IMG/VR virus record: IMGVR_UViG_3300031813_000013
Span: 12,842-76,841 of that record
Length of the DNA: 64,000 nt
DNA from: a virus
Taxonomy: Duplodnaviria; Caudoviricetes
Reading direction: 5' to 3' (one strand)
Shown: positions 59,175 to 63,654 of the stretch, piece after piece
Position numbering within the stretch: position 1 is the first letter of the stretch
Layout: every line of letters starts with the position of its first letter
The notes under the pieces: generated by a model
Told to the model about the DNA's origin: nothing
What the model saw: only the letters and a program-made list of their open reading frames with translations
Database searches by the model: none
Translations under genes and position numbers: made by a program

Positions 59175-60053
59175 TTACTCGTCAGCCAACTTGCTGAAGT
59201 ATGCCAAATCGTCATCATCATCGGTAACCAATTCAGGTTCTTCCTGAACTGGTTTCTTAGGTGCAGACTTCAATGTCTCTACTGTGGTCTTAGGCATTGG
59301 TGTATCACCATTCAATCCTAGAACCTTTTCAAGGCGAGTCTTCAAGTCATCATAAGACTTGAATTCTTTGTCTGCAACCAACTCTGCAAGAGAGTGTTCT
59401 GACTTCCAAATCTTTTCCAACTCATCGTCATCATCCAACAAAGCGGATGAAGCGGCGAATTCAGACTTGTCATAGTTTTGATAGCCAGCAACCTTAGTGA
59501 TACGCAACTTGAAGTTAGCACCAGTCCACAGGTCAAATGGATTGATTGCTGTTTCATCTTCAAAAGCAGGATTCATTGCACCTGTAATCTTCTCAAAAAT
59601 CTTAGCACCGAACTTGAACAACTTAACTTGTCCTTCATTTTCTGGATGCTTAGGATCAGAAACGATATACACGTTAGCAATGTAATTCAACTTACGTTTT
59701 TGCTTACGAACGATTTCTTTGTTGGCTTCAATGCCAGAATTCCACAACTTGTTGTTGTGTTCACACACAGGACATTGTTGGTTCTTGGTAGTCAGGCAGT
59801 TATCAATCAACCAGCCACCAGGACCTTGAAAGCCGTGGCCAAAAATCTTGACCCATGGCAATGCATCATCACCATCAACTGCTGGCGCAGGCAAGAAACG
59901 GATAACGGCAGAACCATTACCTGCTTTGTCTACTTCTGGTTTCCAATAGTTGTCTTTGTTGTCTGCGGCACCTGTAGAATTAAGTGCCTCAACTGCTTTG
60001 GCAAGCTTGTCTAAGTTGCCAGATTGACGTTTGAGATTTGCGAATGAACTCAT
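59175..60053 (-). CDS. gp32: Single-stranded DNA-binding protein
   Basis: MSSFANLKR, WKPEVDKAGNGSAVIRFLP, HGFQGPGGW..NC...CPVC, FGAKIFEKI, NYDKSEF, acidic tail DDDLAYFSKLA. Confidence 0.96.
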   Translation of the reverse strand: MSSFANLKRQSGNLDKLAKAVEALNSTGAADNKDNYWKPEVDKAGNGSAVIRFLPAPAVDGDDALPWVKIFGHGFQGPGGWLIDNCLTTKNQQCPVCEHNNKLWNSGIEANKEIVRKQKRKLNYIANVYIVSDPKHPENEGQVKLFKFGAKIFEKITGAMNPAFEDETAINPFDLWTGANFKLRITKVAGYQNYDKSEFAASSALLDDDDELEKIWKSEHSLAELVADKEFKSYDDLKTRLEKVLGLNGDTPMPKTTVETLKSAPKKPVQEEPELVTDDDDDLAYFSKLADE

Positions 60054-60128: not shown

Positions 60129-60615
60129 CACGTAGGAGTGTATCTAATATGGAGATGGTTGTCAAGGCATCCTTGTGAAGAATACCAGTACCACCTGCTT
60201 CATTCCACTCATCGATGTTAGAATCAGTATCATCAATAAGTATGGAATTTTCGTCAGCAAATTTTGCTTTCAGTTTTTTACCTGGAACAAAAATTGTAGG
60301 ATAGGTAATGCCATGTTGTTCTAGCCACGTAGTCTTTTGAAACTGTATGGCGGCATTGTTTTCTGGTCTTGCGGTAGAAGAAAGAATCTCAATAGGAACT
60401 GTTAAGGTCTTCAAATAATCCAGCAAAACTGGTGCATCTGGCATCATTTCCAGTGAGCCAAAGTTTTTACCTTGAATGAACTGTTTGAAATAATGACCAA
60501 ATTGTCCATGACTATCGGCTTGCACTGGCATTATACCGAAAAGGTCTTCAAACCTTTTTTCAAAGTTTGCAATGACACCATCCATGTCCAAATAGATTTT
60601 TGTAAAATTACGCAT
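60124..60615 (-). CDS. HAD-superfamily 5'(3')-nucleotidase-like protein
   Basis: IYLDMDGV (DxDG motif I), ILSST, KTTWL, ILIDD. Confidence 0.85.
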   Translation of the reverse strand: MRNFTKIYLDMDGVIANFEKRFEDLFGIMPVQADSHGQFGHYFKQFIQGKNFGSLEMMPDAPVLLDYLKTLTVPIEILSSTARPENNAAIQFQKTTWLEQHGITYPTIFVPGKKLKAKFADENSILIDDTDSNIDEWNEAGGTGILHKDALTTISILDTLLRG

Positions 60616-61213
60616 GTTCGACTACTACCTCTTTTAAAATGTTTTTAAACTTAACTTTGTCATATTGAATAAAAGGTGCATACTTTTCACTTTTCAATCG
60701 CCAGTTTGGCCATATAATATCATCACTGATTTTACGGTCCCACATGGGAAAGAAATTCATAATATCATTAAGTATGCACAAAGTTTCAACGCTAATTGTA
60801 CCTGACATAACCTCACGCAGTAAGGTTGGATGTTGACCGTCTTTGACAATCAACATTTGTTCAGGTGCATCATTACCAACAAGACCTAGTATATCATTTT
60901 CAAAGACATATGTCAAGCTTTGATTTATCTTTTGCCACTTTTTGTATGCGGCTTCACCTTCAGGTCCAGTCATTTCACCAACCCAAGATGCATCACCGTA
61001 TACAAAATTGGCCAAATAAAATTTTTGCATTTCTTCCAAGGAGAATTTCCGTGAAAGCTTGTAAAAACTATATTTGTCCTTACGCTTCAGAAATGTATCC
61101 TGTGAAACGTTGGTCTTACCGTTATATTTAAAAAAGTCGTAGGACTTAGAGGTGAAATGCGTTTTCAATGCATTATATAGTCTGAACGCCTCAAAGCCTG
61201 TGTTTTCGGTCAT
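60608..61213 (-). CDS. gp59: Helicase loader
   Basis: GFEAFRLYNALKTHFTSKSYDFFKYNGK, FLANF-like FYLANFV, ISVETL, KYAPF. Confidence 0.88.
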   Translation of the reverse strand: MTENTGFEAFRLYNALKTHFTSKSYDFFKYNGKTNVSQDTFLKRKDKYSFYKLSRKFSLEEMQKFYLANFVYGDASWVGEMTGPEGEAAYKKWQKINQSLTYVFENDILGLVGNDAPEQMLIVKDGQHPTLLREVMSGTISVETLCILNDIMNFFPMWDRKISDDIIWPNWRLKSEKYAPFIQYDKVKFKNILKEVVVEHA

Positions 61214-61434
61214 AGCGGAAGTTTAGATGATTTCTTGATTAAGTTAACTGATTGTGCTTCTTCACGGATTCTTGCTTTAAGGTGGGATGAAATTAAGGTG
61301 GCGGCCACCTCAATCTCAATACCAGTTTCATCACAATACTCCACAATTGCTTCCATACAATGCATAGAATGTGTGTTAGCCATTTCTTCAATCTTCAATG
61401 AGAAGTCACGGATTTCATCTTTAGTTGGCATCAT
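61210..61434 (-). CDS. gp33: Late transcription co-activator
   Basis: FSLKIE, MEAIVEYCDETGIEIEVAATLIS..LKARIREEA..NL; start set to ATG 61434 (ATGA overlap with upstream stop). Confidence 0.88.
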   Translation of the reverse strand: MMPTKDEIRDFSLKIEEMANTHSMHCMEAIVEYCDETGIEIEVAATLISSHLKARIREEAQSVNLIKKSSKLPL

Positions 61435-61664
61435 TTGGCCTTCAATGCATAGACCATGCAAAGGTTATCTGTCTGTGTTGCATATGCACACTTAACAGAG
61501 ATGGGGTCAATACCTTTTTGAATGGCTGTGTCCATGTTGCCTGCCATGTTGTTTCTGTCATTGATATTTGACAAATAACCACTAATGATTACTGATACAA
61601 TAACAATGGTGATACACACCATTGATGTAATAACAATTTTCATGTATGAATTTTGGTTTTCCAT
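61431..61664 (-). CDS. Small single-pass membrane protein (77 aa)
   Basis: Start reassigned to MENQNSYMK (61664, AAGGA SD); TM IVITSMVCITIVIVSVIISGYL; two C-terminal Cys. Confidence 0.7.
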   Translation of the reverse strand: MENQNSYMKIVITSMVCITIVIVSVIISGYLSNINDRNNMAGNMDTAIQKGIDPISVKCAYATQTDNLCMVYALKAK

Positions 61665-62275: not shown

Positions 62276-62728
62276 TTAGAAAGAGAACTTTGCACCTACA
62301 GCAACGGTGTTACCATCGAAAGATTTAACTTTGCGGTCGCCATCTTGATAACGATAGTCAACAGTCAAAGCAAGTGCCTTGGTAACTGGAACGGTAACGC
62401 CAGCACCAACTTCAGCAACATAACGCTCATCGCTCTTGATACCTTTCTTGTCAAGGTAACCAACACCAGCCTTAGCGGTCAAAGCGGCATCACCCAACTT
62501 GAAAACATCATAACCACCGATAACGCTGAATTTGTCTAGGTTACGTTTTTGTTCACGGTCGGCTTCAGCAGTAACGCTGAACTTACCAAAATGTTCACCT
62601 ACAGTCAATCCATAACCTTCACGGTCTTTCTTGTTGTAGTTATCGATAGAACCATTAACACCAACTTCAACGGCTGATGCAACTCCAAATGCAGCCATCA
62701 AAGTGGCCAATAGAACTAACTTCTTCAT
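62276..62728 (-). CDS. Small outer-membrane beta-barrel protein (OmpA-TM/Opa/Ail-like)
   Basis: Signal peptide MKKLVLLATLMAAFGVASA; alternating beta strands; C-terminal VGAKFSF (terminal Phe, BAM signal); AAAGGAG SD. Confidence 0.85.
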   Translation of the reverse strand: MKKLVLLATLMAAFGVASAVEVGVNGSIDNYNKKDREGYGLTVGEHFGKFSVTAEADREQKRNLDKFSVIGGYDVFKLGDAALTAKAGVGYLDKKGIKSDERYVAEVGAGVTVPVTKALALTVDYRYQDGDRKVKSFDGNTVAVGAKFSF

Positions 62729-62754
62729 TAAAAACTCCTTTAAGTTGAGATAAG

Positions 62755-63100
62755 ATGGTTGGTTATTCTGTTACGAGGAAACCAACCGAAACCCTAGTCA
62801 GCGCTTAGGCTGCCAATGCGAACTTTTCATCGTTTGCGTTTGTTTTGATTTAGTGTTTACGTCAACTCTGACGGATAGCCTAATATAATACTTGTTACCC
62901 TGTCGAAACTATTTCTCGCCCATCATAAAAATTCAGGCTTGGATTATGTGGATGTCCGTGATACCTTAGTCATCTTCATTACCGCACGGCGCTGGCCTGA
63001 ATTTTTATGGTGGACGAGGGCGGTACTGCCCCGCCGTCCAGAATACTTTTCTTATACCAAGTTTACTATCATTATTAGCGCACCGATTCGGTGTGCTTAC
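62755..63100 (-). ncRNA. ssrA: Two-piece (circularly permuted) tmRNA, tag (A)ANDEKFALAA
   Basis: Acceptor piece first (T-arm GGCGG/CCGCC, CTCGTCC-A-CCA ending at 63008), then coding piece from G1 at 62921 (GGGCGAG, G3-U70 pair); tag ORF 62837-62805; P2 helices pair across pieces. Outer ends approximate. Confidence 0.9.
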
Positions 63101-63105
63101 ATAAA

Positions 63106-63654
63106 TTATCCAAAAATCATTGCGTGTACAAACCTATATGTATCAGCTGCTGCCGATTGTGGTCTTGCACAATGCGGAATGTCACCATCAGCGATAACAA
63201 TTCGTCCGGGAACACAAGTCAAAGCCAAATCAATCTCATTTAAATCTTCCGAGAAGAACAAGGTTTCACCATACCAATGTGGAAACCACAAGTTGTTTGC
63301 ATAGTAAATCAAAAACTTTTTGGCATTTGCATGTACATGTGGAAAATTTGAATCTTGCGAATTGGTCATGTTGATAACATATTTCAACAAATTCAAATCT
63401 TTGATTTTTTCTCCTGCGGCCGATTCCCTAATATACTTTAACAAACCTATTGTAAGGATTTCTTGTGTATTTAATTCAGCGTGCAAGAACTTATCTTTTG
63501 TGATTGTTTCAATATTTGGAGCATCACCCCAACCAAGTTTGAAATTTGCTGCGGCCGACAACGCAAGAGTTTTATCTCTCAAATCCATAGGAATGATATC
63601 ATCATAAACATCCACTTGTTTGCCGGTTGGCAAGATATAATTTTTATGTTTCAT
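63106..63654 (-). CDS. 2OG-Fe(II) oxygenase superfamily protein
   Basis: PHVH, LIYYAN..W...WYGETLF, PGRIVIADGDIPHCARP, RF. Confidence 0.8.
   Translation of the reverse strand: MKHKNYILPTGKQVDVYDDIIPMDLRDKTLALSAAANFKLGWGDAPNIETITKDKFLHAELNTQEILTIGLLKYIRESAAGEKIKDLNLLKYVINMTNSQDSNFPHVHANAKKFLIYYANNLWFPHWYGETLFFSEDLNEIDLALTCVPGRIVIADGDIPHCARPQSAAADTYRFVHAMIFG

What the first reader, a model, noticed from the sequence alone, without database searches (positions are those of the whole stretch)
62755..63100. Phage-encoded two-piece (circularly permuted) tmRNA with an unusual T-loop and a beta-like tag
Seen in sequence (minus strand): the 3' tRNA-like half comes first (GGACGGCGG-GGCAGTA-CCGCC-CTCGTCC-A-CCA, ending at 63008). 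The 5' half follows at 62921 (GGGCGAG AAATAGTTTCGAC). GGGCGAG pairs with CTCGTCC including the G3-U70 alanine determinant. CAGGGTA/TATTCTG and TTATATTAGG/CTTGGTATAA form P2-like helices between the pieces. A tag frame GCA AAC GAT GAA AAG TTC GCA TTG GCA GCC TAA (ANDEKFALAA) lies at 62837-62805, followed by a GGTTGGTT/AACCAACC hairpin. Established: permuted two-piece tmRNAs occur in alphaproteobacteria, some cyanobacteria and some betaproteobacteria; from memory the GGCRGUA T-loop is the alphaproteobacterial signature, whereas ANDE-x-FALAA tags are betaproteobacterial. Inference: a phage ribosome-rescue RNA, possibly a distinct phage lineage, that standard ORF/tRNA annotation misses. No SmpB gene is seen in the window.
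Basis: partly seen in the sequence, partly recalled or inferred. Interest (0 to 1): 0.88.

Follow-up and report, generated by a model that had tools for sequence, protein, structure and literature searches.

The report
Phage two-piece tmRNA, hybrid type
An uncultured T4-like water phage carries its own split ribosome-rescue RNA (tmRNA), a kind of gene already published for related phages, but this one joins the tRNA-like core typical of alphaproteobacteria to a short degradation tag typical of betaproteobacteria, and related phages swap the tag part as a cassette.

Summary
ARAGORN calls a permuted tmRNA (tag ANDEKFALAA) and Rfam scores it above threshold (beta_tmRNA 117.5 bits, tmRNA_permuted 128 bits). 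The gene lies among T4-like phage genes on an IMG/VR contig, so it is not at a prophage junction.

Eleven variants from related phage contigs show strong covariation and an invariant G3.U70 pair. The spacer ends always form a 9-15 bp stem.

Phage-borne two-piece tmRNAs are already published (OM43 phage Melnitz, PMC9004378), at the same locus upstream of gp33-gp59-gp32. This scan has also met close relatives of this RNA on other phage DNA. The GGCAGUA T-loop is the alphaproteobacterial consensus and the norm in this phage clade.

What appears new is the combination: an alpha-type T-loop, D-loop and encoded CCA with a 10-residue betaproteobacterial-type tag and pre-tag region.
- The exact T-arm occurs in 20 other viral contigs.
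- It occurs in none of 185,579 bacterial species representatives.
- The RNA matches none of 50,697 deposited phage genomes.

The tag module is exchanged among these phages, with a breakpoint at the resume codon. No SmpB is encoded, so host SmpB, AlaRS and RNase P are presumably used. Expression and function are untested. Verdict: a real gene, a new variant of a known kind, of moderate interest.

The parts
63078..63096 (-). Leader hairpin directly upstream of the acceptor piece, immediately after the stop codon of the upstream ORF (63106-63108)
   Evidence: It folds at -11.3 kcal/mol. L003-type relatives have a different but still self-complementary sequence at the same place (alignment A1). 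Its role (5' protection, processing or termination) is unknown.
63008..63070 (-). Acceptor piece: P2 5' strands (63070-63066, 63061-63052, 63045-63039), T-stem 63035-63031 with 63023-63019, T-loop GGCAGUA 63030-63024, 3' acceptor strand 63018-63012, discriminator A 63011, encoded CCA 63010-63008
   Evidence: ARAGORN and Rfam alignments. The T-arm and acceptor stem are 100% paired in 11 homologues, with two acceptor pairs changed on both sides. P2a is 6/6 paired in six sequence variants. The true 5' end of the mature piece is not determined.
62922..63007 (-). 86-nt intervening segment (spacer). Its ends (63008-62995 with 62938-62925) form a 14-bp stem that extends the acceptor stem coaxially and encloses the CCA
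   Evidence: Folding of each homologue on its own gives the same extended stem in eight different sequence variants, with spacers of 37-108 nt. The position-anchored tally gives 11-12 of 12 pairs, with up to four or five pair types per position. No ORF lies in this spacer.
62757..62921 (-). Coding piece: 5' acceptor strand 62921-62915 (G3 at 62919), D-loop analogue 62914-62903, P2 3' strands (62902-62896, 62888-62874), pre-tag hairpin 62873-62860, tag ORF, stop-codon hairpin 62812-62799, post-tag hairpin 62787-62757
   Evidence: Rfam alignments, independent folds and pair counts. The post-tag stem changes on both sides at 7 of 8 pairs across homologues. The 3' end lies between 62757 and about 62745, before the ribosome-binding site of the next gene.
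62805..62837 (-). Tag reading frame: resume codon GCA at 62837-62835, ten codons (ANDEKFALAA), stop TAA at 62807-62805
   Evidence: ARAGORN. Homologues keep an open 10-codon frame with varied tags, ending in LAA, MAA or MVA.
61210..61461 (-). gp33-type late-transcription coactivator gene, the conserved downstream neighbour that defines the locus together with gp59 (60608-61213) and gp32 (59175-60053)
   Evidence: Pfam PF16805, PF08993/PF08994 and PF08804. The order tmRNA, gp33, gp59, gp32 is conserved in relatives with both short and long tags, and in Melnitz.

Best explanation
This is an intact two-piece (circularly permuted) ssrA gene of an uncultured T4-like aquatic myophage.

Anatomy (shown). 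One gene encodes, in order:
1. a small leader hairpin;
2. the acceptor piece (P2 5' strand, T-arm, 3' acceptor strand, encoded CCA);
3. an 86-nt spacer whose ends pair into a long stem;
4. the coding piece (5' acceptor strand with G3.U70, D-loop analogue, P2 3' strand, pre-tag hairpin, 10-codon tag ANDEKFALAA with the stop codon in a hairpin loop, post-tag hairpin).

Mechanism (inferred).
- The precursor is cut by host RNase P at G1. A 3' nuclease trims to the CCA, possibly after a double-strand cut in the spacer stem.
- The two pieces stay together through the acceptor and P2 helices.
- Host AlaRS charges the RNA through G3.U70.
- Host SmpB and EF-Tu deliver it to ribosomes stalled on broken mRNAs in the infected cell.
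- This keeps ribosomes free for phage translation and tags the truncated proteins for host proteases.

Evolution.
- The gene belongs to the phage ssrA lineage that sits upstream of gp33-gp59-gp32 in relatives of OM43 phage Melnitz and the pelagimyophages. Like them, it has the alpha-type T-loop, a D-loop with AG rather than GG, and an encoded CCA (shown).
- Its tag and pre-tag region are of betaproteobacterial type (shown).
- The tag module is exchanged among related phages (shown).
- Together this suggests the message part is tuned to a betaproteobacterial host (inferred).
For: Identity: ARAGORN and Rfam hits.

Phage context:
- The record is an IMG/VR virus record of 76.8 kb.
- Baseplate and tail genes are present.
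- gp32, gp59, gp33, a cell-wall hydrolase and an outer-membrane beta-barrel gene lie on one side, and a phage-family ORF on the other.
- The same gene order recurs in relatives at 36-96% protein identity.

Selection on structure:
- Pair counts and controls.
- Anchor-based tallies of P2a and the spacer stem.
- Independent folds.
- G3.U70 is invariant in 11 of 11 sequences.

Selection on the tag: open 10-codon frames with varied tags, ending in LAA, MAA or MVA.

Typing:
- Window: beta 117.5 and alpha 86.7 bits.
- Alpha-type phage tmRNAs: alpha 110-137 and beta 43-65 bits, one of five with no beta match.
- Bacterial beta tmRNAs: beta 169-330 and alpha 57-87 bits.
- The alpha consensus T-loop and D-loop match the window.
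- Bacterial beta tmRNAs have canonical T-loops and ANDExFA[LIV]AA tags.
- The pre-tag region of group members is 70-78% identical to an AT-rich bacterial beta tmRNA.

Lineage:
- Alpha-type phage tmRNAs lie at the same locus.
- L006 is 87% identical to Melnitz SsrA.
- The gp59 tree nests the short-tag phages in a supported clade with the Melnitz-like group.

Cassette exchange: window vs L053 is 98.7% identical before the resume codon and 49.4% after it; the reverse pattern is seen in other pairs.

No SmpB was found in this record or in five relatives, three of them at least 90% complete.
Against: - No expression or processing data exist.
- No convincing promoter lies upstream. There is only a weak 9-of-12 sigma-70-like match inside the preceding ORF.
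- The record is only about 46% complete, so an SmpB gene elsewhere in this genome is not excluded.
- P2 duplex energies are only modestly better than shuffles (z -0.4 to -2.6).
- The host is unknown. The betaproteobacterial assignment rests on the tag type and on kinship to an OM43 phage.
- The direction of the alpha/beta mosaic (which part is ancestral) is not resolved. Block identities are noisy, and the gp59 tree is midpoint-rooted with long branches.
Confidence: 0.85

Rival explanations
1. It is a straightforward capture of a betaproteobacterial host's two-piece ssrA. The GGCAGUA T-loop, the AG D-loop and the encoded CCA arose later by convergence or by small gene conversions. On this reading it is a true beta-lineage tmRNA, not a member of the alpha-derived phage lineage.
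For: - beta_tmRNA is the best Rfam model for every group member.
- Tags match the betaproteobacterial pattern.
- The pre-tag hairpin and resume context of L079-type members nearly match the bacterial G070 tmRNA. That bacterial RNA also encodes CCA and has the same post-tag loop motif.
Against: - Scores are far below bona fide beta members (85-135 against 169-330 bits).
- No tRNA-like GGCAGUA T-arm was found in 401 sampled genomes of that bacterial order, and the exact T-arm is in no bacterial species representative.
- The gene sits at the locus occupied by alpha-type tmRNAs in related phages, and those phages surround it in the gp59 tree.
- The T-arm and post-tag parts are closer to alpha-type phage tmRNAs.
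Confidence: 0.12
2. The RNA does not rescue ribosomes. It acts as a decoy that titrates host SmpB or AlaRS and shuts down host trans-translation, as proposed for the tRNA-like-domain-only RNA of mycobacteriophage DS6A.
For: - No phage SmpB was found.
- A tmRNA-like phage RNA with inhibitory behaviour is described in the literature (PMC4131195 and PMC11915505).
- The T-loop is non-canonical relative to the likely host's own tmRNA.
Against: - A complete, open tag frame with protease-type C-termini is maintained in all variants, and the stop codon always sits in a hairpin loop.
- The resume context and pre-tag region are conserved.
- A decoy would not need the message part. The same T-loop works in alphaproteobacterial tmRNAs, where it is the consensus.
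Confidence: 0.05
3. It is host DNA: a chromosomal ssrA at a prophage junction or attachment site, or a mis-assembled chimera, rather than a phage gene.
For: - tmRNA genes are common integration sites (PMC4383910 abstract).
- The gene is only about 900 bases from the end of the contig.
Against: - Phage-type genes lie on both sides.
- G+C content is uniform.
- T4-like lytic gene content is present.
- The same neighbourhood recurs in independent contigs from many samples.
- Both gene halves are complete.
- No bacterial genome holds the T-arm.
Confidence: 0.01

Closest known systems
SsrA of Methylophilales (OM43) phage Melnitz and the two-piece tmRNAs of related pelagimyophages (Buchholz et al. 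2022, PMC9004378)
   Same: - Phage-borne, circularly permuted, in T4-like aquatic myophages.
- Same locus directly upstream of the gp33 coactivator, gp59 and gp32.
- Same GGCAGUA T-loop and encoded CCA.
- No phage SmpB found in the relatives checked.
   Different: - Melnitz-type RNAs score as alpha_tmRNA, have 13-14-residue alpha-type tags, and are followed by a glutamine riboswitch (L006).
- The window RNA scores best as beta_tmRNA, has a 10-residue tag and a simple pre-tag hairpin, and has no riboswitch.
- blastn finds no match to any deposited phage genome.
Rfam beta_tmRNA (RF01850): two-piece tmRNAs of betaproteobacteria such as Rhodocyclaceae
   Same: - Best-scoring model.
- Same piece order, P2 junction (UUCUGGAC and UUUCGACAGGG), pre-tag hairpin, tag family and post-tag hairpin.
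   Different: - The bacterial members have canonical T-loops and a GG D-loop, and six of the eight examined lack an encoded CCA.
- They score 169-330 bits, against 117.5 here.
- The window lacks the model's terminal hairpin.
Rfam alpha_tmRNA (RF01849): two-piece tmRNAs of alphaproteobacteria
   Same: - T-loop GGCRGUA.
- D-loop analogue of the GAAAUAG type.
- Encoded CCA.
- Post-tag loop with AACAGAA.
- The window passes the family cut-off (86.7 bits against 50).
   Different: - Alpha tags are longer (12-14 residues, ANDN..AP..ALAA type).
- The region before the tag is different.
- The alpha score of the window is no higher than that of bacterial beta tmRNAs on the same model (57-87 bits).

Membership tests
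tmRNA, permuted (two-piece) form (RF04321) | Gene order with the 3' tRNA-like half (T-arm, acceptor strand, CCA) upstream of the 5' half, and the halves able to form the acceptor and P2 helices | tested here: met
   ARAGORN permuted call. RF04321 scores 128 bits over the full model. The helices are paired in all 11 homologues.
tmRNA, permuted (two-piece) form (RF04321) | G3.U70 alanine identity pair and discriminator A followed by CCA | tested here: met
   Read directly from the sequence. The U.G pair is invariant in 11 of 11 sequences (columns 65/189).
tmRNA, permuted (two-piece) form (RF04321) | Tag reading frame starting at an alanine resume codon and ending in a protease-recognition C-terminus | tested here: met
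   ANDEKFALAA followed by a stop. Homologues keep 10-codon frames ending LAA, MAA or MVA.
tmRNA, permuted (two-piece) form (RF04321) | Processing into two RNAs, alanylation, SmpB binding and trans-translation activity | not testable with these tools
   No RNA data could be obtained. This needs RACE or small-RNA-seq and biochemical assays.
beta_tmRNA (RF01850) | Score above the family gathering threshold, as the best model within the clan | tested here: met
   117.5 bits against a cut-off of 84, and 31 bits above the alpha model. This is far below bacterial members at 169-330 bits.
beta_tmRNA (RF01850) | Canonical T-loop (UUCGAUU type) with a GG D-loop, as in the consensus and in all bacterial members examined | tested here: not met
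   The window has GGCAGUA and an AG D-loop. Eight bacterial members have UUCGAUU, UUCGACU or UUCAAUU. No tRNA-like GGCAGUA T-arm was found in 401 genomes of the order.
beta_tmRNA (RF01850) | Ten-residue tag of the ANDExFA[LIV]AA type, preceded by a simple hairpin | tested here: met
alpha_tmRNA (RF01849) | T-loop GGCRGUA, D-loop analogue GAAAUAG type, encoded CCA | tested here: met
   Consensus shown; window sequence.
alpha_tmRNA (RF01849) | Long alpha-type tag (12-14 residues) and the alpha-type region before the tag | tested here: not met
   The tag has 10 residues. The pre-tag region aligns to the beta model, not the alpha model. The alpha score equals the cross-score of bacterial beta tmRNAs.
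Phage ssrA locus of Melnitz-like and pelagimyophage-like T4-type phages | ssrA upstream of the gp33 coactivator, gp59 and gp32 in a T4-like genome | tested here: met

The most novel reading that the evidence does not exclude
These hybrid phage tmRNAs may be the footprint of phage-mediated traffic of the permuted ssrA gene between Alpha- and Betaproteobacteria.
- The betaproteobacterial two-piece lineage (the 'third lineage') may have received its permuted gene from such phages, or donated modules to them, rather than arising by an independent permutation.
- Phages may swap tag cassettes to match the proteolysis adaptors of each new host.

Hints in the data:
- The AT-rich bacterial beta tmRNA G070 shares with alpha and phage tmRNAs the encoded CCA and the post-tag loop motif, and shares its pre-tag hairpin almost exactly with phage members.
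- Cassette exchange at the resume codon is directly visible among the phages.
Probability: 0.12. Interest if true: 0.75.

Novelty: new variant of a known kind. Interest (0 to 1): 0.4.

Why it matters
It adds a defined, phage-restricted subfamily of 21 viral contigs to the known phage two-piece tmRNAs.

It shows that the tRNA-like and message parts of a tmRNA can have different histories and are recombined as modules. That bears on three questions:
- how phages adapt a host-interacting RNA after host shifts, which is the SAR11-to-OM43 question raised for Melnitz;
- whether tag sequences can serve as host predictors for uncultured phages;
- how the three bacterial two-piece lineages arose.

Practically, Rfam subtype labels (alpha or beta) should not be read as host or origin calls for phage tmRNAs.

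Tried and rejected
- blastn of the tmRNA against 50,697 deposited phage genomes found no match.
- The exact T-arm was absent from bacterial species representatives.
- The Sharkady and Williams 2004 paper on the beta lineage is not held. Its view on independent permutation events could therefore not be checked.
- MAFFT put P2a, P2b and the pre-tag hairpin of the second subgroup out of register. I replaced this with anchor-based tallies and independent folds. No covariance model was built, because a full-length model exceeds the calibration limit.
- A single contiguous central-block swap (T-arm to D-loop) between the conserved UCUGGAC and UCGAC motifs looked attractive in alignment A3. Block identities do not support it cleanly, so it is kept only as a hypothesis.
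- A glutamine riboswitch like Melnitz's is absent from the window.
- The prophage-junction reading was rejected on context.
- The Melnitz supplement lists phages with permuted tmRNAs but holds no tag sequences, so it cannot show whether a beta-type one was already catalogued.
- Genome G031 is flagged unpublished.

Full report
**1. What is there**

- ARAGORN reports a permuted tmRNA at 62714-63100 with tag ANDEKFALAA.
- Rfam reports beta_tmRNA at 117.5 bits (cut-off 84) and tmRNA_permuted at 128 bits (cut-off 47), both over the full models.
- alpha_tmRNA also passes at 86.7 bits.

So standard tools do find it.

**2. Context**

The window is the last 64 kb of a 76.8-kb IMG/VR virus record that CheckV rates about 46% complete.
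- It encodes T4-type baseplate and tail proteins.
- Downstream of the tmRNA on the same strand lie an outer-membrane beta-barrel gene, a cell-wall hydrolase, the gp33 late-transcription coactivator, the gp59 helicase loader, a nucleotidase and gp32. Upstream lie a phage-family ORF and two small ORFs.
- G+C content is even, at about 0.35-0.43.
- The closest deposited phages are below 60% identical in gp32 and below 45% in gp59.

This is a gene inside an uncultured T4-like phage. It is not a host gene at an integration site.

**3. Relatives and selection**

About 95 of these show a proper T-stem, acceptor strand and CCA.

The exact 26-base T-arm of the window occurs in 20 other viral contigs and in none of 185,579 bacterial species representatives. 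All readable group members are permuted tmRNAs. Apart from L282 (which has a 284-nt spacer and was called only by tmRNA_permuted), all score best with beta_tmRNA, at 85-135 bits.

Across 11 distinct sequences:
- The acceptor stem, T-stem and inner P2 helix are always paired.
- Two acceptor pairs and two P2 pairs switch on both sides.
- The post-tag stem changes on both sides at 7 of 8 positions.
- G3.U70 never changes.
- Overall 94.7% of cells are paired, against 33-50% with slid partners. The covariation score is 0.334 against 0.126 in shuffles, with 0 of 500 as high.

Position-anchored tallies add two helices that MAFFT mis-registered:
- The outer P2 helix is 6/6 paired in six sequence variants.
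- The spacer stem is 11-12 of 12 paired in eight variants.

Folding each sequence alone shows two constant features. The two ends of the spacer extend the acceptor stem into one long hairpin, whatever the spacer length (37-108 nt). The stop codon always lies in a hairpin loop.

Tags vary but stay in frame as 10 codons ending LAA, MAA or MVA. These are the signatures of a functional RNA, not a relic.

**4. How it most likely works**

Shown: the anatomy above, and the absence of SmpB from this record and from five related records, three of them at least 90% complete.

Inferred from established tmRNA biology:
- The gene is transcribed as one precursor.
- RNase P cuts at G1 and a nuclease trims to the encoded CCA. 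The long double-stranded spacer stem may first be cut by a double-strand-specific RNase.
- The two pieces are held together by the acceptor and P2 helices.
- Host AlaRS charges the RNA through G3.U70.
- Host SmpB and EF-Tu deliver it to stalled ribosomes.
- Translation resumes on the tag frame, so truncated proteins receive the tag.

For a T4-like phage that degrades host mRNA, extra tmRNA would keep ribosomes available. The Melnitz authors also suggest tagging for amino-acid recycling.

No convincing promoter was found upstream. A small conserved hairpin sits between the upstream ORF and the gene.

**5. Comparison with what is known**

Phage-borne two-piece tmRNAs are published.
- Buchholz et al. 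[quoted passage not shown]
- They count 53 ARAGORN-called permuted structures among deposited phage genomes.
- The tmRNA database lists 79 phage sequences.

In my data the alpha-type phage tmRNAs sit at the same tmRNA, gp33, gp59, gp32 locus. One of them (L006) has a glutamine riboswitch and is 87% identical to Melnitz SsrA. The gp59 tree places the short-tag phages inside a supported clade together with that Melnitz-like group. The tree is midpoint-rooted, has some long branches, and needs at least three changes of tag class.

This scan has also flagged look-alikes of this RNA in 17 other genomes, as unchecked first-reader notes.

**6. What is different**

- The Rfam alpha consensus T-loop is GGCgGUA, with a GAAAuAG D-loop analogue, an encoded CCA and an AACAGAA post-tag loop.
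- Bacterial beta two-piece tmRNAs have UUCGAUU, UUCGACU or UUCAAUU T-loops, a GG D-loop and ANDExFA[LIV]AA tags, and six of the eight examined have no encoded CCA.
- The same tag family also occurs in one-piece betaproteobacterial tmRNAs. The tag therefore points to a betaproteobacterial host, not specifically to the two-piece lineage.

Cross-scoring separates the classes:

| tmRNA set | alpha_tmRNA (bits) | beta_tmRNA (bits) |
|---|---|---|
| Alpha-type phage | 110-137 | 43-65 (one of five had no match) |
| Bacterial beta | 57-87 | 169-330 |
| Window | 86.7 | 117.5 |

The window RNA is therefore a divergent beta-scoring molecule with an alpha-type tRNA-like core. No tRNA-like GGCAGUA T-arm was found in 401 sampled genomes of the bacterial order that holds the beta lineage.

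Segment comparisons agree in outline:
- The T-arm and post-tag part are closer to alpha-type phage tmRNAs.
- The tag, and in L079-type members the pre-tag region, is closer to an AT-rich bacterial beta tmRNA.

The segments are short and the numbers are noisy, so I do not claim a single clean swap.

**7. Module exchange**

Among the phages themselves, recombination is directly visible:

| Pair | Before the resume codon | Tag through post-tag hairpin |
|---|---|---|
| window vs L053 | 98.7% | 49.4% |
| L053 vs L003 | 67.9% | 82.7% |
| L003 vs L049 | 97.4% | 48.2% |
| window vs L007 | 49.0% | 82.7% |

L053 is a phage with 84-96% identical neighbouring proteins (except the nucleotidase, 66%) and the same downstream gene.

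The same T-arm also occurs in a complete 100.5-kb phage with terminal repeats and a tRNA array, with no gp59 or gp32 near the tmRNA. So the RNA, or parts of it, moves between phage types.

**8. Verdict**

The gene is real and phage-encoded, almost certainly functional, and dependent on host SmpB. As a phage two-piece tmRNA it is a known kind. The alpha-core and beta-tag combination, its restriction to viral contigs, and the tag-cassette exchange were not found in the papers I could search. Together they make it a new variant of moderate interest. Expression, processing, host and biological role remain untested.

Noticed in passing
L002:1470-1800 (also L027, L028, L056, L059, L061, L065, L071, L084, L100, L119): A group of viral permuted tmRNA genes (tag read as ANDNGSIALAA) has only four bases between the encoded CCA and G1 of the 5' piece. 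The acceptor stem of the precursor is therefore closed by a tiny loop rather than by a spacer. ARAGORN misses these genes.
   Followed up: partly
L282:6985-7270 (same in L286): A member of the same T-arm group has a spacer of about 284 bases. It holds an 86-codon cysteine-rich ORF, like the genes inside tmRNA spacers that this scan has reported in other phages.
   Followed up: partly
window 62276-62728 (-): A 150-residue outer-membrane beta-barrel protein gene with a signal peptide lies directly downstream of the tmRNA. It is 81-95% conserved in the closest relatives (L053, L097, L278, L279) and absent from the more distant ones. It is a possible host-surface-modifying moron.
   Followed up: partly
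window 63078-63096 (-): A small hairpin lies between the upstream ORF's stop codon and the tmRNA. L003-type relatives have a different but still pairing sequence at the same place. Its function is unknown.
   Followed up: partly
L287 (record G412, 100,539 bp, direct terminal repeats): A complete phage genome of a different type carries the same tmRNA T-arm next to a large tRNA array, and tblastn finds no gp59, gp33 or gp32 in the fetched 10.5-kb locus. This suggests transfer of this tmRNA between unrelated phages.
   Followed up: no
L251 (genome G070, 2.0 Mb): This bacterial beta-type two-piece tmRNA scores only 169 bits on beta_tmRNA. Unlike the Rhodocyclaceae members, it encodes its CCA and has the alpha- and phage-like post-tag loop motif. 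It is the bacterial form nearest to the phage group, and its taxonomy is not disclosed by the tool.
   Followed up: partly
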